Shown: positions 3,515 through 43,999 of the stretch, piece by piece
How the letters are laid out: every line of letters begins with the position of its first letter
Position numbering within the stretch: position 1 is the stretch's first letter
Source: Dictyostelium discoideum
Taxonomy: Eukaryota
Reading direction: 5' to 3'
Length of the DNA: 64,000 nucleotides
Assembly: GCA_000004695.1 (NCBI GenBank)
Contig: CM000153.2
Coordinates: 5,088,001 to 5,152,000, forward strand
Position numbers and translations under genes: made by a program
The notes under the pieces: generated by a model
Database searches by the model: none
What the model was told of the DNA's origin: nothing
Seen by the model: only the letters and a program-made list of their open reading frames with translations

Positions 3515-19567
<16,053 letters not shown>

Positions 19568-21082: not shown

Positions 21083-22311
21083 TAACTATTTATAATTTTG
21101 GAAATTAGAACATTGAATAATCCAGGTAATCTTTTCAATTTTAATGGTAAATTCCCATTCTCTTCTCTTCATAAAAATTTAGTGATTTTGTAAATATTTA
21201 TAGATTAATTATTATTGTTTTTTTAAATTTTTTTTTTTTTTTTTTATTAACATTTATAAATTAATTATATTATTTTAGTGATTTTAATGATGGTAATTTT
21301 TCAGAATTACCAAAATTAGAAGATGTTTTTAAAGAGGAAATAGCTGTAATTAATTTGAATAATAATAGTATTGGAGGAAATATTCAAACCACATTGGATT
21401 TTAATAAACTTCCAAAGTTAGCAACACTTAATTTAAGAAATAATAGATTAACAGGATCAATTGACGAAAGTTGGTGTAGAATTAATTTTGATATTAGTTA
21501 TAATCTTATTGGTGGTGAAGCTCCTAGTTGTATGGTTTGTCATTTTCAACAAAATGATTTATCTATTCGTGGAATAAATTTTACTAATTGGAATCCAAAA
21601 CCACCATGCACTTCAATTATTCCAAATTTAATGTACGATAATTCAACAAAACTATTATTAATATATGGTCAAGATATTGGCGTTGCAAGAACAAATTTTA
21701 AAATAGAAAACTCATATAACTATTCACCATATTGCAGTATGCCTGGTTATCCAGATATTAGAAATAGACAATTTTGTTTTAAATACATTGACACTGATGA
21801 ACCAAATCCATTTTCATTTAATATTACATACCCAAAATTACCACCAGGTTCAAGAAAAACATTTGAATTGGCTGCTTATAATATGTTTTTACCATTGGTT
21901 AATAAGGTTACAATGAACTCCAAAGAATCATTAACAATTGCTGGTAGATATTTCGCATACAACAAAACAGTAATTAATGTTCAAGTTGATGGCAAAATCT
22001 GTAATATTGAATCATGTGATTTTAATGAAATTAAATGTAAATTTTCAAATGATAATAACAATAATATTAATGGTTTAAATGTATTTGTACAAATTATGAA
22101 TGTTTCATCCCAATTTTGTATTTCCAAATGTAATGCAGCTGATAATTATGAATGTGAATTTAAATTTGAAAGATGTAATTGTAGTGAAGGATGGGAAGGT
22201 GGTGACTGTAGTATTAAAATTGAGAACAAATTATCAAATTCAAATAGAAACAATATTTTAAATACTACTATAATATTTATAGTTTTAATTTTAATACTAT
22301 CATCATTTTAA
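19749..22311 (+). CDS. Secreted or membrane-anchored LRR + EGF-like receptor-like protein, paralog A (~690 aa). Seven exons: approx join(19749..19830,19927..20149,20228..20623,20706..20867,20947..21042,21109..21189,21279..22311)
   Basis: Seen in sequence: signal peptide 'MRLFYLILFFLIVSTIING'. Plant-type LRRs ('LNLRNNRLTGSIDESWC', 'ISYNLIGGEAP'). C-terminal EGF-like Cys modules ('CNCSEGWEGGDC'). A C-terminal hydrophobic tail ('ILNTTIIFIVLILILSSF'). Donors are GTATTT, GTAAGT, GTACGT, GTAGGT, GTATGT and GTAAAT, all followed by AG acceptors. The phase is continuous through ORF-track pieces 19944.., 20439.. and 21355... Boundaries are ±1-2 nt. Confidence 0.7.
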
Positions 22312-23872: not shown

Positions 23873-25395
23873 AAAAAATAAAAAAGAGAAACATTAATTA
23901 ACTATTTATAATTTTAAAAATTAGAACCATAGATAGTCCAGGTAATCTTTTCAATTTTAATGGTAAATTCCCATTCTCCTCCTTTTATAAAAATTTAGAA
24001 CATTTGTAAATATTTAAAAATAATATTATTTATTATTATTACTAATAACATTATTATATTAATTTATTTTTATTAATATTCTTTTTTTTTAAAAATTATT
24101 CTTTTAGTGCTCTTAATGATGGTAATTTTTCAGAATTACCAAAATTAGAAGATGTTTTTAAAGAGAAAATAACTGTAATTAATTTGAATAATAATAGTAT
24201 TGGAGGAAACGTTCAAACCACATTGGATTTTGGTAAACTTCCAAATTTAAAGGTACTTAAATTAAAAAATAATAAATTAACAGGATCAATTGATGAAAGT
24301 TGGTGTAGAGTTAACTTTGATATTAGTAATAATCTTATTAGTGGTGAAGCTCCTGGTTGTGTTATTTGTCATGTTCCTGATCATCATCCACGTATTCGTG
24401 GAATTAATTTTACCAATTGGGATCCAAAACCACCATGCACTTCAATTATTCCAAATTTAATGTACGATAATTCTTCTGACCTACTCTTACTCTATGGTCA
24501 AGATATTGGCTTCTCGCCTATGGATATGTATATACTAGATATTTCATATAAATTCTCATTTTCCTGTGATATGCCTGGTTATCCTGAAATTTATAATACT
24601 CAATTCTGTTTAAAATACATTAGCACTGATGGACCAAATCCATATTCATTTAATATCACATACCAACACTTACCACCAGGATCAAAAACAACATTTGAAT
24701 TGGCAGCTTATAATATGTTTTTACCATTAGTTAATACCGCTATATTGGATTATTCCAATGAATCATTAACAATTGCTGGTAGATATTTCTCATACAATAA
24801 GACAGTAATTAATATTCAAGTTAATGGTAAAACCTGTAATATTGAATCATGTGATTTTAATGAAATTAAATGTAATTTTTCAAATGATAATAACAATAAT
24901 AGTAATTTTAATGGTTCAAATGTATTTGTACAAATTATGAATGTTTCATCGGAAATTTGCATTTCCAAATGTAATGATGATGTCCCTTATGAATGTGAAT
25001 TTAAATTTGAAAGATGTAATTGTAGTGAAGGATGGGAAGGTGACAATTGTGAAACTCTTAAAAGATGTCCAAATGATTGTAGTGGTGCAGGTATTTGTAA
25101 TCATATCACTGGAATATGTTTATGTAATTCTGGTAGAATACAAGATGATTGTAGTGTTTTAGGATTTGAATGTAAGTCAGATTGTTTAAATGGTTCAAAA
25201 TGTAATTATGCAATTGGTAAATGTGATTGTATACTTGGATGGGAAGGTGATGATTGCAGTTCAGAATTATCATCATCAGAACCATCATCATCATCAGAAC
25301 TATCATCATCAGAACCATCAAAATCAAACAAAATAATACTGCTCAGTGTTCTATTACCATCACTTGCATTGTTGGGTTTAATATTATCATTTTAA
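22525..25395 (+). CDS. LRR + EGF-like receptor-like protein, paralog B (771 aa, tandem duplicate of A with extra EGF modules). Seven exons: join(22525..22603,22717..22933,23021..23416,23508..23669,23745..23837,23925..24005,24108..25395)
   Basis: Seen in sequence: the exon count matches paralog A. The intron phases are identical, 1,2,2,2,2,2. The intron positions and the unusual GTAAAT donor are the same. Protein identity to A is about 65-75%. Exon 7 adds 'CPNDCSGAGICNHITGICLCNSG...CKSDCLNGSKCNYAIGKCDCILGWEGDDC' EGF repeats, a Ser-rich stalk and a hydrophobic tail 'ILLSVLLPSLALLGLILSF'. The summed exon length is 2316 = 772 codons. Confidence 0.75.
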
Positions 25396-31923: not shown

Positions 31924-34501
31924 ATGACAGATTTTATTAGAGGTAAAACTCAACATAAAGTTATCTCAGAGAAATTAGAAGATCAAGAAATTGTTAGTAC
32001 AAAGAGAATTACACCAAAGAGAGTTAAAAATGATGATAAAGATAAAAAAGTTAACAAGAAACAAAAAACTTCAAATCAATTAGCACCAATTATCACTGAA
32101 GAAGGTAATGGTATAGCAGATTCTGATGAAGATGATGATAATAATGATAACAATGACGAAAAAAAAGTTTCAGCTGAAGAAGAAAAAGATAGAAACCTTT
32201 TTGCATCTGCTTATAATAGTTTAAAGGGTAAAAAGAAAGCTAAATTAGTTTCAAAAATTGATAAACTTACACCATCTCAATTAAAAGAATATATGAATGA
32301 ACCAACAACTCAATTAAATAAAAAAGAAGAAGCTGATGCTAAAAAGTTATTACCTTTCTTAAAAAAGAATATTCCAAAATCTGCATGTAGATTACTTAAA
32401 AAAGTAAGTATTATATGTAATTATATAATTATATTAATTTAATAATATTAATTTTTTTTTTTTTTTTTTTTTAAGGATTTACATACTGGTATGGTAGTAT
32501 TAGCAACATTTGAACAAGTTACAGAAATGGATATTACAATTAGTTTACCATTTGGATTGAAAGGATATGTTAAATTTAATGAAATTTCAGATTCATTTAC
32601 AGAATGGATGAAAGAAACTTTAAAGAGAGAAGATGAAAATGAGAAATCAACAAACTTTAGAAAGATGAAGATTATATCTGACCAAGTTAGAAAAATGTTT
32701 TACAAAGGTCAAATGTTAAAATGTGCAATCGTAGGTTTAACCGATCATCATACTATTGAAGGTCTTCATTGCACACTTAGACCAGAGTTGGTTAATGTTG
32801 GTTCATCAATTGATACATTCTCAGAGGATATGACAATTCATGGTTGTATTGAGTCAATTCAAGATAAAGGTTATATCGTTTCATTTGGTTCAAAAGATTA
32901 CAATGGTTTCTTGGAATTTTCAAACACTTGTTACTATTACCCCGATCAATCTTCTGATGACCAAAATCAACTTTACATTGGTCAACCAATTGAATCTTTA
33001 ATTCAATCAATTGATAAATCAACTAAAACTTTTAAATTAACAATTTCTCATCCATTAGTTTCACGTTCAACTGTAAAGTATTTAAATTTAAATTTAATTA
33101 CAATTATTTTATTAATTTATTAATTTATTTTATTTTATTTTATTTTTTTTAAAAAAAAAAAAGATTAAAAACTCTGAAACTATTACAATGGAATCAATTA
33201 AAGCAGGTATGTTAGTTGAAACCAAAGTTTTAAGAGTTTTAAGTAATGGTTTACATTTAGGATTTTTAGATTTCTTTGCAGGTGATATTTTCATTTTACA
33301 TTCACAAAATCCAATTGAAACCTATAAAGAGAATCAAGGTGTTAAAGCAAGAATATTATTTGTTGATCAAGTTCACAAGAGAATTGGTTTATCAACATTG
33401 GGTCATGTTTTAGGTTTTAAACCATATCCATTTGGTACAACCAAACCAGGTCAATATGTTGAAAGTGGTAAATTAACAATTGAAAGAATTGAACCATTAG
33501 AAATGATTGTCACAACTGAATCAACAGTGGTACAATCTAATCCAATGAAGGCACCATTACTATTAAGAGGTTATATTCATATTGAAGAGTTGGAGAGTGG
33601 TGTAAACGATTTAACCAAAGCATCAAATCAATTTAAAAAGACAGAACCACTCGAAAAGAGATGTAGAGTTAAACATTTAGATCATTTAGATGGTATGGTA
33701 ACTTATACAGCTCGTACTAGAGAATTGGAGAAGAAATTCTACTCTTACAATGATTTATCTTGTGGTATGGTCGTTCAAGGTGTAATTAGATATGTTCGTG
33801 CCGATTCATTAGAGGTTGAATTGGCCACCTCAATTCATGGTGTAGTCGCTAGACATCATATGGCCGATACTAATATCACCGATCCTTTGGAATTCTTTAA
33901 AGTTGGTGCAACTGTAAAAGTACGTATTATAAATGTTGAGCCAGATAAGAAACGTCTTCAATTAACTCTCAAGAAATCCTTAATCTACTCAGAGTATCCA
34001 ATCATTACCGATAAAAACACTACCCCAATTGGTACTATCTCTCATGGTATCATCACTAAAACCACTAGATTCCTCGTTTTCGTCTCTTTTTACAATAATA
34101 GTTTTGGTGTTGTTGAAGCTCAAAATCTTTCAAATAGTAAAATTGAATCCGTTCAAAAACAATTCCCTGTTGGTCGTACAGTTTTAGCTAAAACTTTATT
34201 CTCTGAAAGTAGTAAATCTCAACCTGGTTTACCTTTGACTTTAGTAATTGATGATGATGATTTTAATTCACAACCACAACCAAATTCAAATAAAAAATCA
34301 AATAATAGTAATAATAAGAAAGAAAATAAAAAAGTGGAAAATAAAAAAGTAGAAGAGGAAAAAGTTGAAGAAGAAGGAAAAGAAGAAGAAGAAAAAGAAA
34401 ATAAAGAAGAAAAAAAACAAGAACAACAAAAAGAAGAAAAAAAACAAAGTACAAAAAATAAGAAAATAGAAACAAAATCAAAAAAAGTAATTAAAAAATA
34501 A
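31924..34501 (+). CDS. Rrp5/PDCD11-like rRNA-processing protein with about six S1 RNA-binding repeats and a K/E-rich tail, but no HAT/TPR half (804 aa). Three exons: join(31924..32403,32476..33072,33164..34501)
   Basis: Seen in sequence: a GTAAGT donor at 32404 and a 'ttttaag' acceptor give '...CRLLKK|DLHTGMVVLATFEQVTEMDITISLPFGLKGYVKFNEIS', the Rrp5 first-S1 signature. A GTAAAG donor at 33073 and an 'aaaaag' acceptor at 33163 are in frame with ORF 33188... Further S1 cores are present: 'HGCIESIQDKGYIVSFG', 'GMLVETKVLRVLSNGLHLGF', 'RGYIHIEEL', 'GMVVQGVIRYVRADSLEVELATSIHGVVARHHM' and 'HGIITKTTRFLVFVSFYNNSFGVVEAQ'. The exon lengths sum to 805 codons. Confidence 0.7.
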
Positions 34502-34850
34502 TTAAATAAATAAAAATATATTAAAAAAAAAAAAAAAAGAATACAAAAAAAAATAAAAAAATAAAATTAAAAATTAAAAAAAAAAAAAAAAAATAGTACC
34601 CTAAAGGATAACGTATAATGGTTTTAAGTTTTTATAAATTCCAAAATCAAAAACAGATAAATTATTAATAATTTGATTTGGGAATTTTTTATTTATTTTT
34701 TTTTTATTTATTTTTCTCTTTTTATAGCGATGATGATGGTGATGATGATGGTGGAGGTGTTTTTTTTTTTATGTTATTTTTTTTTTTGACTTTAATTACA
34801 ATAATTGAATTGATAAACACCCTTTGGTGTTTGTATTTGTATTTGTGTTA

Positions 34851-34886
<36 letters not shown>

Positions 34887-35986
34887 AAAAAAAAAAAAAC
34901 ATAAAAAAGGAAAATAAGAGAGAAAATATACTATCAATTACAAATAATCACACTTAATCTCAACAATTAATTAAGATGTATAATTTAGATGTAAAAAAAA
35001 AAAAAAAAAAAAAATTTTTTCTTTTTTATATTTGTGCAGTGTGATTTGTAAATGTGGTTTTGTTTTTTTATCCAATAAAAAAATAGGTTTTGTTATACTA
35101 TATTCAAAAACTATTTATCAAACCATTTATAACGCCATTGATTAGAAAAAAAAAAAAAAAAAAAAAAAAAAAGAGTTAACTATAATAATCATTGGAAAAA
35201 AAAAAAAAAAAAAAAAAAAAAAATGAATTCATAAAAAAAAAAAAAAAACAAAAAAGAAAAAGAAAAAAAAGAATACTTTATTGGTATTGATTGTATTAGA
35301 TAAATTAAACTTTGAAATTGTTGATTTTGATTGATTGAACAGGGAGGGGGTTAACAAAATGGTTTCAATGAATTATAATTTAATACTTTTGTTTTTTTTA
35401 TTTTTTATTTTTTTAATTTTTTACATGTTAGATTTTTTTTTTTTTTTAATAAATAATACACATATGGCACATAGTGGTAGGATAAAAAAAAAAAAAAAAA
35501 TAAAAATCTTTTTTTTTTAATGTTACCCCAAATAGCAGTTACACTAAATCATACAAAAAGTAAGTTTATTAATTTTTTTTTTTTTTAAAAAAAACATTGT
35601 GGTAAATAACATATTTGTCATATAAAATTTTAAAAAATAATACAAAAAATAATAATTGGTGATTAAAAGATAATTTTTTTATTAAATTATATAAAAAATT
35701 AAAATTTTGCTACATTTTTTTAATGTTTTTTTTTTTTTAGTATAAATTAAATTCAAAATTTTTTTTTTTTTTTTTATTCAGTTATTAAAAATAAACAAAT
35801 TTTATATAATTTAATTAAATTTTATCTAAATACCAAAAAGTAAATATTATTTCTTTTATTATATTTTTAAAATTAATTTACTTATTTCTAATAATTTTTA
35901 TATTAATAAATTATTATTATTATAATTATTATTTTTTTTTTTTTTTTTTAAAATTAATTTTAGCTTTAAAGAAAAAATAAAATAAA

Positions 35987-37246: not shown

Positions 37247-38362
37247 ATGAAAAAAGATATTATTTTAGTACTTTTAATAGTATTACATTTATTCTTTTTT
37301 GTTTCAATATTCGCAATTTCACCAAATTCAGAGATAAAACCACAAACAATAGACACCCAATCTTCAACTTTAACAACTTCCTCTACAACAACAACAACAA
37401 CCTCTTCACCAACAACAACCCCATTGGACATAAAACAACAACAATTAAAACAAAATATTATAGATAGTAATAATAATAATAAGATTAAAGAAGAAGAAAA
37501 AGAAAAATCAAAGAATGTTTATGTTACATTTGCAGATAATGCAGAATATTTAAAAGGTATAGTAGCATTAAGAATGTCAATGATAAATACAAAGTGCAAT
37601 TATGGATTGATTGTATTTGTCACTAAACAAGTTGAACAACAAGATAGGGAACCATTACAATTGTTAGATTGTGATGTTAGAGAGATTGAAATGGTTGATA
37701 TACCAAAAGAAGTGAGTGTCCAAATCGACAGATGGAGACCTGCTTTCACAAAGTTCAGAGCATGGCAATTGGTGGAGTATGAGCGTGTCATTTGGCTAGA
37801 TTCCGATATGTTGTTGTTGAAATCGTTGGATCACTTATTCGATTTGGTTGATATCGGCAACCCGAAATTACTATATGCTGCAATTGACGCAGATGCGAAT
37901 AGTTGTGTGTTCAATAGCGACCGTTTGAAATTAATAAATTCAGGTATAATGCTATTGTCACCATCGATTGATGTTTATAATCTGTTGATTGATGGAATGG
38001 TGGTAGTTAGTAAACTACCAAACCAGAGCACTGTAAACGACCAAGATGTGATCAATACCACTTTGCCACACTGGAGATCCTTGTCATATCCAGAGTATGG
38101 CGTTCAAATAACACATTGTGAATGCACGAGTGAGCCAAGACTTTGGAATTTTACAAATACTTATTTCTTACATTTCACTGCCGGTCTAAAAGAATTACCA
38201 AAACCATGGTCACTACTAAAGAAATCTCAAAATGAAGCTAAAGATATCTTTAAACAAATGCCAACTTGTATTGAACAAATTTATTTAAATTGGATTAATA
38301 CATATAAAGAAGCTTTAGATTTTATTGAAAATAAATTAAATTTAGTTAATTTAGTAAAATAA
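37247..38362 (+). CDS. Family GT8 glycosyltransferase (glycogenin/galactinol-synthase-like), type II membrane topology, 371 aa
   Basis: Seen in sequence: N-terminal signal-anchor 'ILVLLIVLHLFFFVSIFAI'. A Ser/Thr-rich stem. GT8 motifs 'YVTFADNAEYLKGIVAL', the DxD motif 'IWLDSDMLLL', and 'GIMLLSPS', the GT8 'G(x)LVxxP' region. Confidence 0.85.
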   Translation: MKKDIILVLLIVLHLFFFVSIFAISPNSEIKPQTIDTQSSTLTTSSTTTTTTSSPTTTPLDIKQQQLKQNIIDSNNNNKIKEEEKEKSKNVYVTFADNAEYLKGIVALRMSMINTKCNYGLIVFVTKQVEQQDREPLQLLDCDVREIEMVDIPKEVSVQIDRWRPAFTKFRAWQLVEYERVIWLDSDMLLLKSLDHLFDLVDIGNPKLLYAAIDADANSCVFNSDRLKLINSGIMLLSPSIDVYNLLIDGMVVVSKLPNQSTVNDQDVINTTLPHWRSLSYPEYGVQITHCECTSEPRLWNFTNTYFLHFTAGLKELPKPWSLLKKSQNEAKDIFKQMPTCIEQIYLNWINTYKEALDFIENKLNLVNLVK

Positions 38363-38977: not shown

Positions 38978-41900
38978 ATGGATAAAACTATAGAAATTGA
39001 AAAATTAATTAAAATATTAATTGAAAAACAAAAAGAAGAAGAGATTGATGTATCTGAATTATCAGAATCAATTAAAAAAGTTTCTAAATTTATTTTACAA
39101 AATAATTATCAAGATATTGAGAATCAAAAAGATGAAATTACCAATCAAGAAATTAGTAGATGGGTAACATCAGTTTGTACATTAAAACAAAGTATTGAAA
39201 TGATTGCTAAAAAAGTTGGAATAATGGGAGACTATTTACCAACCATTAGATTTGGTGTATCATGGATTGAAAAAGGTAGACCAATTCTAATTAGATTATT
39301 ATCAATTGAAAGTACACCAATGAAAACCATTAAAGAATTCATTCGTATGGCTAAAATATCAAGATTGGAATTGAATTCTAAAATACCCGATGATACTGAA
39401 GATGTTGAAAAATTACTCACATCTGATAGAGATCACTTTATCAATATTGAATCAATCATTCATAGAGTCATCAACTATGGTAAAAAAAATATGATTGAAC
39501 AAATTGATACATTACATTCAATGGGTGCAAGTTTGGAAGTTGTTCAATTCCAAGGATTTAATAAAAAAACACCATTGGATTGTTCGGTTGATATCGAGAA
39601 TTTAGAATTATTTAAATATTTAATAAACAAAGGTGCAGGTGAAAAAGCATTACATAATAATGTGAATTCATTCTATAAGAAACAACCTCAAGAGATTAAA
39701 GCAACTCTTAGACCATTCATAAAGAAACTTTTCTTAATCAATGCAAAAATTGCATGGAGATTAGCATTTGATGAAATTTTTACAACTAAACCAATGGCAA
39801 CTTCTGGTGGTAATAGATTATGTAAAACTGCAACAATGAATGATAGATATATTACACCAACAATTTATGAAATGATTTTTAATAATGATGGTACCCCAAG
39901 GAATAACAACGAGACCAATAGTACTGCCATTGGTGGTAGAGCCAGAGCCAGGCCAATAATGGAATCAAATGGTAATTTTTTAATTGCAAAATTTCAACCA
40001 CAATTCCCTGCAATGGAATTAATTACAATTAAACTCACTCAAAATTTATTTGGTGAAGCTGCACCATTTTCAGAGTTAATTAAAATTGATAACTATCCAA
40101 TTATTATCACTCAAAAAGTTGAGGGTGATATATTATCTGATTTAATTTCATCAACCAATCCAATGGATCATAATAAACTTTTAAACCTTGACACTTCATC
40201 AATGTCAAAATTGTTTGTATCGGAAATGATAATTAATTCTGCCAAAGGTTCATTCAATGATTTCATAGTATCACCAATTTTAAATCAAGATATCACTGAT
40301 GAAACACCTCAAAAATATAAATTGGTTAGAATTGAAAATGAACTATCATTTGTTCCATCATCACCAACACTATTGACTACATCAGCTTTACTATTTCTTG
40401 GTGGTAAAAATTCAGCATCAGTCAATTCATGTTTGTACCTTTTAAATGAAATGAATGATCAAGTTCATCAAGATGTAATTGACCGTTTCATTGGATTAGA
40501 TGTCACAACATTCCTAACCGATTGGTTATTTAGTGTATTAAATACTCATAATACATCATTAGATTTATTCGATCATAATCATGATTCAATTCAACATTTT
40601 AATATTGAAAATGATAAATCTTATGTTGGTGTATCATTACCATATGGCCAAATTCAATCACTTTATTCAAAATTGAATAGAATTAAAAATGTTCTCTCAA
40701 AGAAAAGATATTCTGGTAATTTAACTCATTGGCAATTATTAGAAATTATTGAACCATCAATTGCAAATATTTATAGACCATTTTTACCAAATTATCAACC
40801 ACCACCACCATCACAACTACCATCACAAACATTTAAAATGATTAAAGAGAAATTTATAGAATTTCAAAATAAATGTCATACTGAAACATTAACTTCTTCA
40901 TTCATTTATGAATCAAGAGGTATTGTAGTTAAAACTCAAAAACAACTCGAAATTGAAAGAAAAGAGTTATTAGTACTTGAAAAGAAAATTGAAGAAATAA
41001 AGAATTTAAAAAAAGAAAGAGATCCAATAACTGAAAGAAATTTTAAAAAATTAAATGAAAGAAAGAAAATTCTTGAAGATTCATTAACTGATGAAATTCA
41101 AGAGTTTGCTTCAATTAAAGAGGAAGTGAATCAACATGAACAATTACTTGAAAAGATTGAAAATGAATCACCAATTGAAACTATTTTAAGTGGTTTAAAG
41201 AAACAAGCAACATCACCATCACCATTATCAACCACAACTGGTGTTCAATGGGAAACTTTAATTGATAAAATCGATTTTTCAAAAGCAAATATCAATTCAT
41301 CATCATCATCAGATAATCATCAAATGATTTTAGATATTATTGGTTCAATTAAAGATTTACGTTTTTATCGTATTAAAAATAGTAATAAATTAACAATTGA
41401 CAGTTTTAGATCAAGTACATTACAATCAATAAATTCAATTAAGAAATTGTATATTACAAATTGTCAAACTTTATTAAACTTTCAAAATTCATCATTATTT
41501 GGTGGAAAATCATCATTGGTAATGACAGCATTAACTCATTTCAAAGTTGATCAATGTAAGAAATTAACAACCATTAAATTGGATGCACCAAATTTAGTAT
41601 CATTCTCTTCAACCAATTGTTCAGAATTGAGTGAATGGGATTTAAAAGCACCAAAATTAAGAAAATTAAAAATTCAAGCAAATAAAATCTCTACTCAAAC
41701 AATGTCAACTTTTGAAAAGAATTTCCCATTATTGAGTTATTTAGATATTAGTAGAATTGTTGCACCATCTTCAAAGAATGTTTTAACAATACTAGAACTA
41801 TCTCATTGGAAGAATTTAGAAACTTTAATTGCTGATGGAGTTGTTTCAATTGAAAAGATTTCAATCACAAATCAACTAAAAAAATTATCAACATTAAACT

Positions 41901-43388
41901 TTAAAGGTTGTTCATCATTGAAAGAGATTCAATCAAACAGTATTACAAATAAATCATCATCACCATCACCAGTTTGTCCAATCTTACAAAGATTAGATTT
42001 AACTGATACTTTAATACCAATCGAAAGACATTCACAATTACTTCATTCATTGAATAATATGAAAAAGGTTGTAATTTGTGGTTTAAATGATATTCTTTCA
42101 TTTAGTTCATCTATTAATTTATTTGATGAAATTGTAAATGGTGTTGTAGTTAAATGTGCAACTAGAAATAAGGTTGAAGAGGTTATCCATATGGATCAAT
42201 TATTCCAATATAATTATTCAATTGAACCAACAATTCCTCCAAGATTATTTCAACAAACAAACTCATTGGTATTGTTAATGGATTCAAGTAATATTCATGA
42301 TTCTGCTAGATTATTTGAAAAGTATTGTCATCATTTGAAAATCGGTGGTAATTCACAAAAAATTAATAAACCAAATAAAATTTGTTTAGTCTATCTTGCA
42401 AATGGTAATGGTGGTATAACAACTCAAATCGATAGAGATACAAATAAATCTTGTAAATTATTCATTAAAGATTTCATTAAAAGTGATGTTTGTGCAAATC
42501 TTGAAGTTCATTACATTAGAATCAAAGGTGTCAATAAGAAATATAAACGTGCTGCAATTAGAGAAACCATTACACTATTATTAAACACTGATTCTTTCTC
42601 TAGTGTTGTTGATAATAATAATAATGGAATTAATCATAAAGCTGCTCAAAAAGAAATTAATCAATCTTATCAAATCAAAATTCAAAAAGAGTTGGAATCA
42701 TTTTATGATAATTTAATTAGTAAAGATTTAACTGTAGTTGAAATTTTAAATCAATTAGAACATTCAAACTATGTTGAATTTGCCAACTCACTTAAGAATC
42801 ATGTTGCAACCATTCAATTATTCAATAGTTTAATGAGTGATTCATTATCATGTTTCTTTAGAAATTTAAAGAAATTTTATTTAATTGCAAAGATTGAACA
42901 TAATCCAATCAATGATTTTGATGATTCAACCACTAGCGATAACTATAGTTCCTATGGTAGTGTTTCATATAAAACTGGTATTAAAGGTACAATCAATTAC
43001 TCAACTGAAAATAATGATAATACTGAAATCTTAACTTGGTTAGATGATTATTTCTCAAAGGATGTTGATACTCTCTTTAGATGTAGTACCAAAGATGAAC
43101 CAATCAATTTAAATTTCAACTCTACAAAATTACTTTGTCGTTGTATTGAATCTGGTTGTATTCCTGCTTTCTATTGGTATCTCTCAAGAAATTCAAAACT
43201 TTTAGAACAACGTTTCAATGAAGATGAATCAAACTTTTATTTTGATTCAAGTCCAATTACAAGTTTAGTACAATATGATTCAATTGATACTATTAAATGG
43301 TTAAATTTTAATAATTATTTAAATAATAAAAATAATAATAATAATAATAATAATAATTTAAATAGTAATAATAATAATAATAATAATG

Positions 43389-43468
<80 letters not shown>

Positions 43469-43999
43469 TTTAAATCAAAAATATTAAATGCTGGATTACT
43501 TAAAGCATGTCAACTAGGTAAAATTGAAATCTTCAAACTTTTATTAACAGATGAATATGGTGCAAATTATTTACATCGTGATGATGATTCACTCTTATCA
43601 CCAATTCATATGGCTGCTCAAGGTGGTCATGTTGGAATCATGAGATTATTATTTGGACGTCATAGTAAAGATAATGCAAACTCATCAGAATTAATGAATT
43701 CAAAAGATCTACAAGGAAATTCTCCATTACATTATGCAGTTCAAAATTGTAGAACCTCTGTTGTTGAATATCTTTTAAATGAAAAAGGTGATGACATCAA
43801 TAAACAAAATATTTCTGGCGAAACTCCAATCTTCCAATTACTCACTGAAATTGAAAAAGATCCAACAAATAATAGTTTAGACGCACTCTTTCATGAATTA
43901 AAAGATTTCTATAATGCTAAACTTGAAATCACTGTTTATAAAAATCCTTTTGATATTCTAAAAAAATATGCTTCCATTAAAGAAGAAATTCAACATTAA
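38978..43999 (+). CDS. Large (1,673 aa) ankyrin-repeat and cysteine-containing LRR protein with a coiled-coil segment. Central domain of unknown, possibly atypical-kinase-like, fold.
   Basis: Seen in sequence: C-terminal ankyrin repeats ('SPIHMAAQGGHVGIMRLLF', 'GNSPLHYAVQNCRTSVVEYLLNE', 'GETPIFQLL'). An F-box/LRR-like CC-LRR run ('KKLYITNCQTLLNF', 'DQCKKLTTIKLDAPNLVSFSSTNCSELSEW', 'NFKGCSSLKEIQ'). A K/E-rich coiled coil lies around 40.9-41.2 kb. A poly-N tract lies at 43.3 kb. Confidence 0.65.

What the first reader, a model, noticed from the sequence alone, without database searches (positions are those of the whole stretch)
31924..34501. Rrp5-like gene encoding only the S1-repeat half, with no HAT/TPR half
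The three-exon gene ends at 34501 after about six S1 domains and a Lys/Glu-rich tail. Canonical Rrp5/PDCD11 has 12 S1 domains followed by C-terminal HAT/TPR repeats. In yeast the two halves are functionally separable and can act in trans. This gene may be one half of a naturally split Rrp5, or a truncated paralog. The K/E-rich tail ('KKENKKVENKKVEEEKVEEEGKEEEEKENKEEKKQEQQKEEKK') resembles a nucleolar-localising acidic/basic block.
Basis: partly seen in the sequence, partly recalled or inferred. Interest (0 to 1): 0.5.

Follow-up and report, generated by a model that had tools for sequence, protein, structure and literature searches.

The report
Dictyostelium Rrp5 split into two genes
This Dictyostelium gene encodes only the first six RNA-binding S1 domains of the ribosome-assembly factor Rrp5, while the remaining S1 domains and the HAT/TPR repeats sit in a separate, unlinked gene, a natural version of a split that yeast geneticists make artificially.

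Summary
A three-exon gene (31924-32403, 32476-33072, 33164-34501, + strand) encodes 804 aa: a basic/acidic leader, exactly six S1/OB domains and a Lys/Glu tail, with no HAT/TPR. The window is Dictyostelium discoideum; by orthology table the gene is DDB_G0286941.

The protein is collinear with S1 domains 1-6 of full-length Rrp5. The short form (773-848 aa) is found in ten dictyostelid species. In four other species (D. purpureum, A. subglobosum, C. fasciculata, T. lacteum) a convergent gene starts 50-200 bp after the stop, so hidden HAT exons are excluded.

No dictyostelid full-length Rrp5 appeared among the best 150 database representatives.

The missing half exists as its own gene. A codon-biased DNA pattern found an environmental contig encoding an 875-aa protein with about five degenerate S1 domains plus an Rrp5-type HAT/TPR. 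Its relatives are Polysphondylium violaceum KAF2068284.1 (859 aa) and another dictyostelid protein (920 aa).

[quoted passage not shown] I could not read the DDB_G0290181 sequence.

Verdict: a naturally split Rrp5, a new variant of a known factor, of moderate interest.

The parts
31924..32403 (+). Exon 1 (aa 1-160): start codon, Rrp5-type N-terminus MTDFIRGKTQ, and a Lys/Asp/Glu-rich leader predicted to be mostly disordered
   Evidence: Translation. Matches P0001. pLDDT below 50 over residues 1-163. N-terminal motif shared with the unsplit Rrp5 P0020.
32404..32475 (+). Intron 1, 72 nt, GTAAGT...AG, AT-rich with a T run
   Evidence: Sequence. Its removal restores the frame and reproduces the annotated protein across the junction LLKK|DLHTG.
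32476..33072 (+). Exon 2 (aa 161-359): S1 domains 1 and 2
   Evidence: tblastn of full-length Rrp5 proteins hits 32473-33078.
33073..33163 (+). Intron 2, 91 nt, GTAAAG...AG
   Evidence: Sequence. The junction SRST|IKNSE matches P0001.
33164..34501 (+). Exon 3 (aa 360-804 plus TAA): S1 domains 3-6 and the K/E tail
32398..32790 (+). S1 domain 1 (aa 159-265, spans intron 1), with a helical insertion at about aa 199-234
   Evidence: S1 HMM. AF2 strands 167-193 and 240-265 and helices 199-234. Aligns with C. thermophilum Rrp5 from residue 131.
32806..33057 (+). S1 domain 2 (aa 271-354)
   Evidence: Weak match to the human RRP5 S1 NMR structure 1wi5.
33185..33406 (+). S1 domain 3 (aa 367-440)
33431..33721 (+). 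S1 domain 4 (aa 449-545), the most degenerate of the six; of the RRP5 '4th OB' type
   Evidence: S1 HMM, 11.8 bits. Pfam OB_RRP5_4th is above its cut-off for the whole protein. AF2 beta units.
33743..33982 (+). S1 domain 5 (aa 553-632), the best conserved
   Evidence: Pfam best stretch 560-628. S1 HMM, 79 bits. pLDDT 80-92.
34016..34240 (+). S1 domain 6 (aa 644-718), the last folded domain
   Evidence: The alignment with C. thermophilum Rrp5 reaches residue 659 and beyond.
34277..34498 (+). Lys/Glu-rich disordered tail (aa 731-804), encoded by AAG/GAA-type repeats
   Evidence: 25 K and 19 E of 74 residues. Tandem repeats. pLDDT about 25-33. Orthologues keep an acidic and/or basic tail but not its sequence.
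34502..35986 (.). AT-rich non-coding DNA downstream of the stop, with no exon-like ORF
   Evidence: ORF list. No tblastn hit. In four other dictyostelids a convergent gene starts 50-200 bp after the stop.

Best explanation
The gene (D. discoideum DDB_G0286941 by orthology table) encodes the stand-alone N-terminal module of a naturally split Rrp5. The module consists of a charged leader, S1 domains 1-6 and a disordered K/E tail.

In the ancestor of Dictyostelia the Rrp5 gene was broken in the linker after S1 domain 6, and several middle S1 domains were lost. The C-terminal module (about five degenerate S1 domains, an acidic/basic linker and the HAT/TPR solenoid; 859-920 aa where I have the sequence) is now a separate, unlinked gene.

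Inferred mechanism, by homology with yeast. The six-S1 protein is a nucleolar single-strand RNA binder. It holds the ITS1/5.8S-proximal part of the nascent pre-rRNA, which is the large-subunit arm of Rrp5 function. The HAT/TPR-bearing partner sits in the small-subunit processome, working with Rok1 and Utp22/Rrp7. The two act in trans, as engineered yeast fragments S1-6 + S7-12T do.

Shown here: the gene structure, the six S1 domains, orthology to Rrp5 S1 1-6, conservation of the short form across Dictyostelia, absence of a HAT half in 64 kb, and existence of a separate S1+HAT/TPR gene in dictyostelids.

Inferred: the RNA targets, nucleolar localisation, action in trans, and that DDB_G0290181 has the same C-half architecture as its P. 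violaceum counterpart.
For: Orthology and collinearity.
- Residues 156-674 align with C. thermophilum Rrp5 131-659 (E = 7e-48).
- In the profile search, five dictyostelid representatives (773-848 aa) score 803-1337 bits. The next hits are full-length Rrp5 proteins of 1500-2000 aa at 438 bits or less, and their residues ~140-700 match profile positions 134-700.

Conservation of the short form.
- D. discoideum, D. citrinum, D. purpureum, P. violaceum, T. lacteum, A. subglobosum, Synstelium, C. fasciculata, the unnamed EukProt species of P0006 and P. pallidum.
- A convergent neighbouring gene follows immediately downstream in D. purpureum, A. subglobosum, C. fasciculata and T. lacteum.

The partner gene.
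- Contig L006 carries an 875-aa ORF with in-frame stops upstream of its ATG.
- P. violaceum KAF2068284.1 (859 aa) lies on a different contig from the N-half gene KAF2077214.1.
- It aligns with yeast Rrp5 1256-1721 and C. thermophilum Rrp5 1015-1763.
- Pfam finds HAT/Suf plus weak S1. The helical repeat is modelled with confidence over residues ~680-858 (pLDDT 70-89), less so from 590.

Tiling. P. violaceum N-half 121-667 matches residues 49-582 of the unsplit 1299-aa amoebozoan Rrp5 P0020, and the C-half 178-849 matches residues 574-1285.

D. discoideum itself. [quoted passage not shown] The same pairing is seen as PPL_01899/PPL_01900 in P. pallidum.

Functional plausibility. Yeast Rrp5 cut between S1 domains 6 and 7 complements almost fully (PMC6800521). 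The N- and C-terminal functions are separable (PMC6168700).
Against: - I never saw the DDB_G0290181 sequence or its length.
- The last protein search returned only P. violaceum and one EukProt dictyostelid. It did not return the D. discoideum, D. purpureum or P. pallidum proteins, although by analogy with the N-half they should share enough 5-mers. They may therefore be much longer or otherwise different.
- That tool appears to drop targets longer than about 1.75x the query.
- The S1 domains of the C-half are weak (HMM 11-45 bits; low pLDDT).
- There are no data on expression, localisation or RNA binding.
- In yeast the Noc1/Noc2-sensing S1 domain 7 is needed for 40S/60S coupling. The dictyostelid pair seems to lack the middle domains, so the yeast mechanism cannot simply be transferred.
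Confidence: 0.8

Rival explanations
1. Truncated paralog. D. discoideum keeps a full-length Rrp5 elsewhere (for example DDB_G0290181, with S1 1-6 and more plus HAT). This gene would be an extra N-terminal copy with a redundant or new role.
For: The annotation 'HAT repeat ... S1 domain' does not say how many S1 domains DDB_G0290181 has. That protein was not returned, which would fit a length above ~1400 aa, given the apparent length limit of the tool.
Against: A dictyostelid protein carrying its own S1 1-6 should outscore fungal Rrp5 against the dictyostelid N-half profile. Yet after the five short representatives the next hit is a chytrid. None of the AT-rich or best-matching proteins in the top 150 is dictyostelid. 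The sequenced dictyostelid HAT/S1 proteins (859-920 aa) start with a Thr-rich leader and lack S1 1-6. No yeast-like RRP5 is listed for three dictyostelids.
Confidence: 0.07
2. Gene-model artefact. The real transcript continues or is spliced beyond 34501 into exons that carry the remaining S1 domains and the HAT repeats.
For: None was found.
Against: A TAA stop is followed by 1.5 kb of AT-rich DNA with only low-complexity reading frames and no exon-like ORF. There is no Rrp5-like coding anywhere else in the 64 kb. The protein end is conserved in ten species. In four of them a convergent gene starts 50-200 bp after the stop.
Confidence: 0.02
3. Neofunctionalised multi-S1 RNA-binding protein. After the split, the six-S1 protein left ribosome biogenesis, for instance for mRNA or small-RNA binding in the manner of bacterial S1, and the HAT/S1 protein alone does the Rrp5 job.
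For: Six S1 beads on a string is also the architecture of bacterial bS1, the best structural match. Reduced Rrp5 forms exist: 9 S1 + TPR, 6 S1 + TPR.
Against: The sequence is far closer to Rrp5 (167 bits) than to bS1 (32-45 bits). Rrp5-specific Pfam models pass their cut-offs. The protein has been conserved over the whole dictyostelid radiation, with 47-70% identity. Every reduced Rrp5 seen here retains S1 1-6, which argues that these domains carry a core function.
Confidence: 0.1

Closest known systems
Yeast Rrp5 N-terminal fragments (Rrp5_S1-6, Rrp5_S1-9) used in trans-complementation (Torchet 1998, Eppens 1999, Young & Karbstein 2011 and Khoshnevis 2019, as cited in PMC6800521 and PMC6168700)
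   Same: The same domains, S1 1-6, collinear with Rrp5. The break lies between S1 domains 6 and 7, a position where yeast tolerates physical separation with near-full complementation. The second polypeptide carries the C-terminal S1 domains and the TPR.
   Different: Here the split is natural, encoded by two unlinked genes and fixed in a whole lineage. The middle S1 domains appear to be lost. Each half has gained its own low-complexity leader or tail. Function has not been tested.
Full-length Rrp5 / PDCD11 (yeast 1729 aa, C. thermophilum 1796 aa, Rhizamoeba 1890 aa)
   Same: Orthologous S1 1-6, a canonical N-terminal F-x-R-G motif, and the Rrp5-specific Pfam models S1_RRP5 and OB_RRP5_4th.
   Different: Only 6 of 12-15 S1 domains, and no HAT/TPR on the same chain.
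Bacterial ribosomal protein bS1
   Same: Six tandem S1/OB domains as flexible beads. It is the best fold match (Foldseek E = 7e-24).
   Different: Sequence similarity is low, 32-45 bits against 167 bits for Rrp5. The gene is eukaryotic and nuclear, with introns. There is no evidence of ribosome association.
Reduced or split Rrp5 forms seen here in other lineages: Logan proteins P0020 (9 S1 + TPR) and P0063 (6 S1 + TPR); Mucorales S1-only (Sporodiniella, 7 S1 + acidic tail, 809 aa) and TPR-only genes (Rhizopus, 388 aa)
   Same: S1 1-6 is always retained as a block. An acidic tail or linker follows the last S1. In Mucorales the TPR is likewise a separate gene.
   Different: The break points and the domains retained differ. 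To my knowledge these forms are undescribed, and I examined them only superficially.

Membership tests
Rrp5 / PDCD11 (rRNA biogenesis protein RRP5) | Tandem S1 domains of the Rrp5 subtype | tested here: met
   Pfam S1_RRP5 at 97 bits (cut-off 27) and OB_RRP5_4th at 33.2 bits (cut-off 31.5). Six S1 domains by HMM and by AF2.
Rrp5 / PDCD11 (rRNA biogenesis protein RRP5) | Collinear orthology with Rrp5 from other eukaryotes | tested here: met
   Residues 156-674 align with C. thermophilum Rrp5 131-659. All non-dictyostelid hits checked by name are Rrp5 or unnamed proteins of Rrp5 length, and the listed hits match through their N-terminal part, mostly residues ~140-700. This covers the N-terminal third only.
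Rrp5 / PDCD11 (rRNA biogenesis protein RRP5) | Twelve or more S1 domains on one polypeptide | tested here: not met
   Exactly six. Full-length relatives have 12-15.
Rrp5 / PDCD11 (rRNA biogenesis protein RRP5) | C-terminal HAT/TPR (Suf-like) solenoid on the same polypeptide | tested here: not met
   No HAT, TPR or Suf hit. The protein ends in a disordered tail. The HAT/TPR is found on a separate dictyostelid protein and is listed for DDB_G0290181.
Rrp5 / PDCD11 (rRNA biogenesis protein RRP5) | Nucleolar protein required for pre-rRNA cleavages (A0-A3 in yeast) | not testable with these tools
   No expression, localisation or genetic data were available. No paper in the held library mentions the gene.
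Bacterial/organellar ribosomal protein bS1 | Closest sequence relatives are bS1 proteins, with six S1 domains that have the bS1-specific N-terminal ribosome-binding domains | tested here: not met
   bS1 chains score 32-45 bits against 167 bits for Rrp5. The fold similarity is generic to S1 repeats.
Naturally split (two-gene) Rrp5 of Dictyostelia (proposed here) | A second, unlinked gene in the same genome encodes the C-terminal S1 domains plus an Rrp5-type HAT/TPR and lacks S1 1-6 | tested here: inconclusive
   Met by sequence for P. violaceum: KAF2077214.1 and KAF2068284.1 lie on different contigs. For D. discoideum the evidence is only the annotation of DDB_G0290181 and conserved adjacency to ube3a. 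Its sequence was not seen.

The most novel reading that the evidence does not exclude
In Dictyostelia the covalent link between the two Rrp5 modules is gone, together with the middle S1 domains. In yeast one of those (S1 domain 7) senses Noc1/Noc2 and delays A2 cleavage until 60S assembly has begun. If so, social amoebae either couple small- and large-subunit assembly through a new interaction in trans (perhaps via the charged tails) or do without this checkpoint. They would then be a natural system for asking what the Rrp5 tether is for. A rarer variant of this reading is that the group-4 partner DDB_G0290181 is not a simple C-half at all.
Probability: 0.35. Interest if true: 0.6.

Novelty: new variant of a known kind. 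Interest (0 to 1): 0.45.

Why it matters
Rrp5 is one of very few factors needed for both ribosomal subunits. Its single-chain architecture is thought to coordinate their assembly.

A lineage in which evolution has cut the protein at a site that yeast tolerates experimentally, and kept it cut across all dictyostelid lineages sampled, shows that the tether is dispensable in vivo.

It also offers a genetically tractable organism in which each module can be tagged, deleted or cross-linked separately.

There is a practical warning too. A large ortholog survey lists RRP5 as undetected in three dictyostelids (PMC3919561). That is most likely a false negative caused by the fission. The Mucorales and Logan variants suggest that Rrp5 architecture is more plastic than '12 S1 + TPR' implies.

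Tried and rejected
1. Looking for the HAT half in the window. Pfam on all large ORFs and tblastn with full-length Rrp5 and dictyostelid C-halves found nothing.

2. Looking beside the gene in five other dictyostelids. No S1/HAT neighbour.

3. A protein search with a Rhizamoeba + Fabomonas TPR profile. There were 412 hits, of which 120 were shown. All were 461 aa or shorter, and even the query's own 1890-aa source was missing. The tool therefore seems to return only targets up to about 1.75x the query length. No dictyostelid was listed.

4. Trying to make dictyostelid sequences rank higher with mainstream-derived queries, tested locally on the N-half. I tried single queries, profiles masked to conserved columns and profiles tilted towards dictyostelid composition. 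Dictyostelids stayed in the lower part of the ranking every time, so a mainstream query could never show them within 120 rows. I abandoned this approach.

5. S1 paralogy as bait. N- and C-part S1 domains of one protein share only 0-3 five-residue words. Rejected.

6. What worked was a DNA pattern for ERGR..P.R.D.W written in Dictyostelium-preferred codons. It gave a single metagenome hit, which I then used as the protein query.

7. A codon-neutral pattern for the dictyostelid motif NIW[IV]ALYNLEN.YG against bacterial and archaeal genomes, looking for contaminating contigs. No hit.

8. Literature searches for Rrp5/PDCD11 in Dictyostelium, gene fission of Rrp5, and DDB_G0290181. Nothing relevant in main texts. 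Supplements of PMC3919561, PMC4931340 and PMC3188802 were informative. Two other papers had no supplements held, one had nothing relevant in them, and one was not in the library.

9. The AF2 model of the C-half. Only the TPR is confident, because the alignment had just 3 sequences. It could not settle the S1 count.
Full report
**What is there**

The window is AT-rich (18-28% GC) and comes from Dictyostelium discoideum. The predicted protein is 99% identical to an annotated D. discoideum protein (P0001).

Joining 31924-32403, 32476-33072 and 33164-34501 removes two short GT..AG introns of 72 and 91 nt. The result is an 804-aa ORF ending in TAA. The eight differences from P0001 are all away from the exon junctions, and five of them fall in the C-terminal tail. 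The three-exon model is therefore right.

Through the InParanoid table of Sucgang et al. 2011, the D. purpureum orthologue DICPUDRAFT_29294 (P0003) pairs with DDB_G0286941. That gene had no description at the time.

**Anatomy**

- Pfam finds S1_RRP5, S1 and OB_RRP5_4th above their cut-offs, and no HAT, TPR or Suf.
- An S1 HMM iterated on the Rrp5 proteins collected here finds exactly six domains: 159-265, 271-354, 367-440, 449-545, 553-632 and 644-718.
- An AlphaFold2 model built on eight dictyostelid orthologues shows six beta-rich OB units at the same places.
- The model also shows a helical insertion in the first domain, a disordered leader (1-163) and a disordered tail (731-805).
- Foldseek's best match is six-domain bacterial S1. 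By sequence, however, Rrp5 is far closer: 167 bits against 32-45.
- The tail holds 25 K and 19 E in 74 residues and is encoded by AAG/GAA-type repeats.
- Orthologues keep an acidic and/or basic tail but not its sequence.

**It is the N-terminal third of Rrp5**

Residues 156-674 align collinearly with residues 131-659 of C. thermophilum Rrp5.

I searched 1.84 billion cluster representatives with a profile of eight dictyostelid orthologues. Five dictyostelid representatives of 773-848 aa scored 803-1337 bits. After a wide gap came proteins of mostly 1500-2000 aa at 438 bits or less. Their residues ~140-700 match profile positions ~134-700.

Those I could name are Rrp5 of chytrids, Basidiobolus, Rhizamoeba (Amoebozoa), Fabomonas, Cyanophora and a liverwort.

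The N-terminus MTDFIRGKTQ matches the canonical Rrp5 start, for example EEIHFPRGKTQ in P0020. By the same HMM, non-yeast Rrp5 proteins have 13-15 S1 domains.

**The short form is real and ancient**

Proteins of 773-848 aa with the same architecture occur in D. discoideum, D. citrinum, D. purpureum, P. violaceum, T. lacteum, A. subglobosum, Synstelium polycarpum, C. fasciculata and one more EukProt species.

In D. purpureum, A. subglobosum, C. fasciculata and T. lacteum a convergently transcribed gene begins 50-200 bp after the stop codon.

In the window itself, 1.5 kb of AT-rich DNA with only low-complexity reading frames and no exon-like ORF follows the stop. Nothing else in the 64 kb resembles Rrp5. 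Read-through or hidden HAT exons are therefore excluded.

**Is there a full-length Rrp5 elsewhere?**

None of the best 150 representatives is a dictyostelid protein longer than 848 aa. I named the most AT-rich and the shortest candidates. No protein in the set resembles the dictyostelid C-half at more than 35% overall or 47% in the TPR.

A paralog carrying its own S1 1-6 would be expected to outrank the chytrid hits.

Independently, Supplementary Table 8D of Ebersberger et al. (PMC3919561) leaves the RRP5 row empty for D. discoideum, D. purpureum and P. pallidum, while filling it for Entamoeba. It does list dictyostelid ROK1, NOC2, MAK21, HAS1, RCL1, UTP22 and RRP7.

**Finding the other half**

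Protein searches with mainstream Rrp5 queries could not work, for two reasons:

- The tool lists only 120 hits and seems limited to targets up to about 1.75x the query length.
- In local tests dictyostelid sequences always rank low in the list, even with masked or composition-tilted profiles.

I therefore wrote the most conserved TPR motif (ERGR-10 residues-P-x-R-x-D-x-W) in Dictyostelium-preferred codons and scanned the JGI metagenome contigs. There was one hit.

Contig L006 is 2768 bp at 31% GC. It carries a complete 875-aa ORF, preceded by an AT-rich leader with in-frame stops. The ORF contains:

- a Thr-rich leader;
- about five weak S1 domains;
- an acidic/basic linker;
- an Rrp5-type HAT/TPR.

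It is collinear with Rhizamoeba Rrp5 residues 1056-1886.

Used as a query, it retrieved P. violaceum KAF2068284.1 (859 aa, 87% identity) and a 920-aa EukProt protein with a dictyostelid-style identifier (48%).

The P. violaceum protein aligns with yeast Rrp5 1256-1721 and C. thermophilum Rrp5 1015-1763. It has HAT/Suf Pfam hits plus weak S1 hits. Its C-terminal helical repeat is modelled with confidence over residues ~680-858, and less so from 590.

Its gene lies on a different contig from the P. violaceum N-half gene.

The two P. violaceum proteins tile an unsplit 1299-aa amoebozoan Rrp5 end to end. This protein, P0020, has S1 1-6, then three S1 domains, then the TPR. The junction falls right after S1 domain 6.

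**D. discoideum itself**

I had no search left that could reach its genome, but two published tables help.

- Sucgang et al. [quoted passage not shown] It is orthologous to D. purpureum protein 152947 and is listed directly after ube3a (DDB_G0290179 / 152946).
- Glöckner et al. 2016 give the same description to P. pallidum PPL_01899, which sits next to ube3a (PPL_01900).

So a separate HAT+S1 gene, in conserved synteny, exists in groups 4 and 2. It has a gene number far from DDB_G0286941 and is not in this window.

**What remains unexplained**

One search did not return these three proteins, although the N-half analogy predicts that they share enough 5-mers. The retrieval cut-off lay between 23 and 32 shared words.

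Since PPL_01899 is real and was also missed, the search was incomplete, so its silence is not evidence of absence. It does leave the length and the exact S1 content of DDB_G0290181 unverified.

**How it probably works**

By homology, the six-S1 protein is a single-strand RNA binder acting on nascent pre-rRNA.

In yeast, the N-terminal S1 domains serve A3 cleavage and the 5.8S/25S pathway, while S1 10-12 plus the TPR serve A0-A2 cleavages. The two parts work when expressed separately (PMC6168700). Cutting between S1 domains 6 and 7 gives nearly full complementation (PMC6800521).

The dictyostelid break is at that same boundary. The likeliest reading is therefore two proteins acting in trans. 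This gene would provide the large-subunit/ITS1 arm, and the HAT/TPR protein would provide the small-subunit processome arm.

None of this is tested. Localisation, RNA targets, any contact between the halves and the role of the charged tails are all inference.

Yeast S1 domain 7 mediates a Noc1/Noc2-dependent checkpoint. The dictyostelid pair appears to lack the middle domains: 6 + about 5 against 13-15. How, or whether, subunit assembly is coupled in these organisms is therefore open.

**Comparison and novelty**

The protein is an orthologue of part of Rrp5. It fails two defining features of the family as usually stated: 12 or more S1 domains, and a HAT/TPR on the same chain.

I found no paper describing a split Rrp5 or mentioning either Dictyostelium gene.

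Similar plasticity showed up elsewhere:

- a stand-alone 388-aa TPR-only gene in Rhizopus;
- a protein of 7 S1 domains plus an acidic tail in Sporodiniella;
- Logan proteins with 9 S1 + TPR and with 6 S1 + TPR.

In all of them S1 1-6 stays together as a block.

I rate this a new variant of a known kind, of moderate interest. It is not a new mechanism. It is a clean natural counterpart of a classic yeast experiment, and it corrects the impression that dictyostelids lack RRP5.

Noticed in passing
L005:10001-11281 (Rhizopus microsporus); proteins P0166, P0176, P0172, P0126: Mucorales seem to have their own split Rrp5. A 379-388-aa protein consisting of a basic leader plus the Rrp5 TPR is a stand-alone gene in Rhizopus; its upstream neighbour is a cation-efflux gene, not an S1 gene. 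Sporodiniella has an 809-aa protein with 7 S1 domains and an acidic tail, on a different contig from its TPR-only protein.
   Followed up: partly
P0020 (Logan, 1299 aa) and P0063 (Logan, 1087 aa, 14 cluster members): These are reduced but unsplit Rrp5 proteins from unidentified organisms. P0020 has S1 1-6 + three S1 + TPR and is most similar to Rhizamoeba. P0063 has only S1 1-6 + TPR. Together with 13-15 S1 domains in most non-yeast Rrp5 proteins, this shows that the domain number is variable while S1 1-6 is constant.
   Followed up: partly
PMC3919561, Supplementary Table 8D: The RRP5 row is empty for D. discoideum, D. purpureum and P. pallidum, although both halves exist in dictyostelids. This is probably a false negative of orthologue detection caused by the fission.
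   Followed up: yes
window 34277-34498: The K/E tail is encoded by AAG/GAA-type repeats. Five of the eight differences from another D. discoideum assembly's protein (P0001), including a one-residue indel, fall between residues 730 and 767. The tail looks slippage-prone and polymorphic.
   Followed up: partly
window 4913-19567 (+): A single 4884-aa ORF encodes a giant HECT ubiquitin ligase with SPRY and PH domains. D. purpureum has a product of more than 3100 aa at the same position upstream of its Rrp5 N-half gene.
   Followed up: partly
window 37247-38362 (+): A family-8 glycosyltransferase gene. The same family is the immediate convergent neighbour of the Rrp5 N-half gene in T. lacteum and C. 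fasciculata. In D. discoideum it is 2.7 kb away and on the same strand, which suggests a local inversion.
   Followed up: no
window 21355-22311 and 24184-25395 (+): ORFs with ComC-like beta-sandwich, TIG and EGF domains, probably exons of one or two ComC-family adhesion or signalling genes.
   Followed up: no
window 38978-43999 (+): A 1673-aa ORF whose only recognisable domains are C-terminal ankyrin repeats (residues 1507-1618).
   Followed up: no
(tool behaviour): the search for homologous proteins returned no target longer than about 1.75x the query, not even the query's own source protein. It also missed annotated dictyostelid HAT/S1 proteins. Negative results from it need care.
   Followed up: partly
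L006:1-2768 (JGI contig Ga0256900_1008193): An environmental contig 87% identical at protein level to P. violaceum carries the complete C-half ORF without the small intron-sized gap (~70 bp) implied by the P. violaceum gene span (2649 bp for 859 codons). It may be a transcript or come from a related species without the intron. Dictyostelid sequences are thus present in JGI metagenome data.
   Followed up: partly
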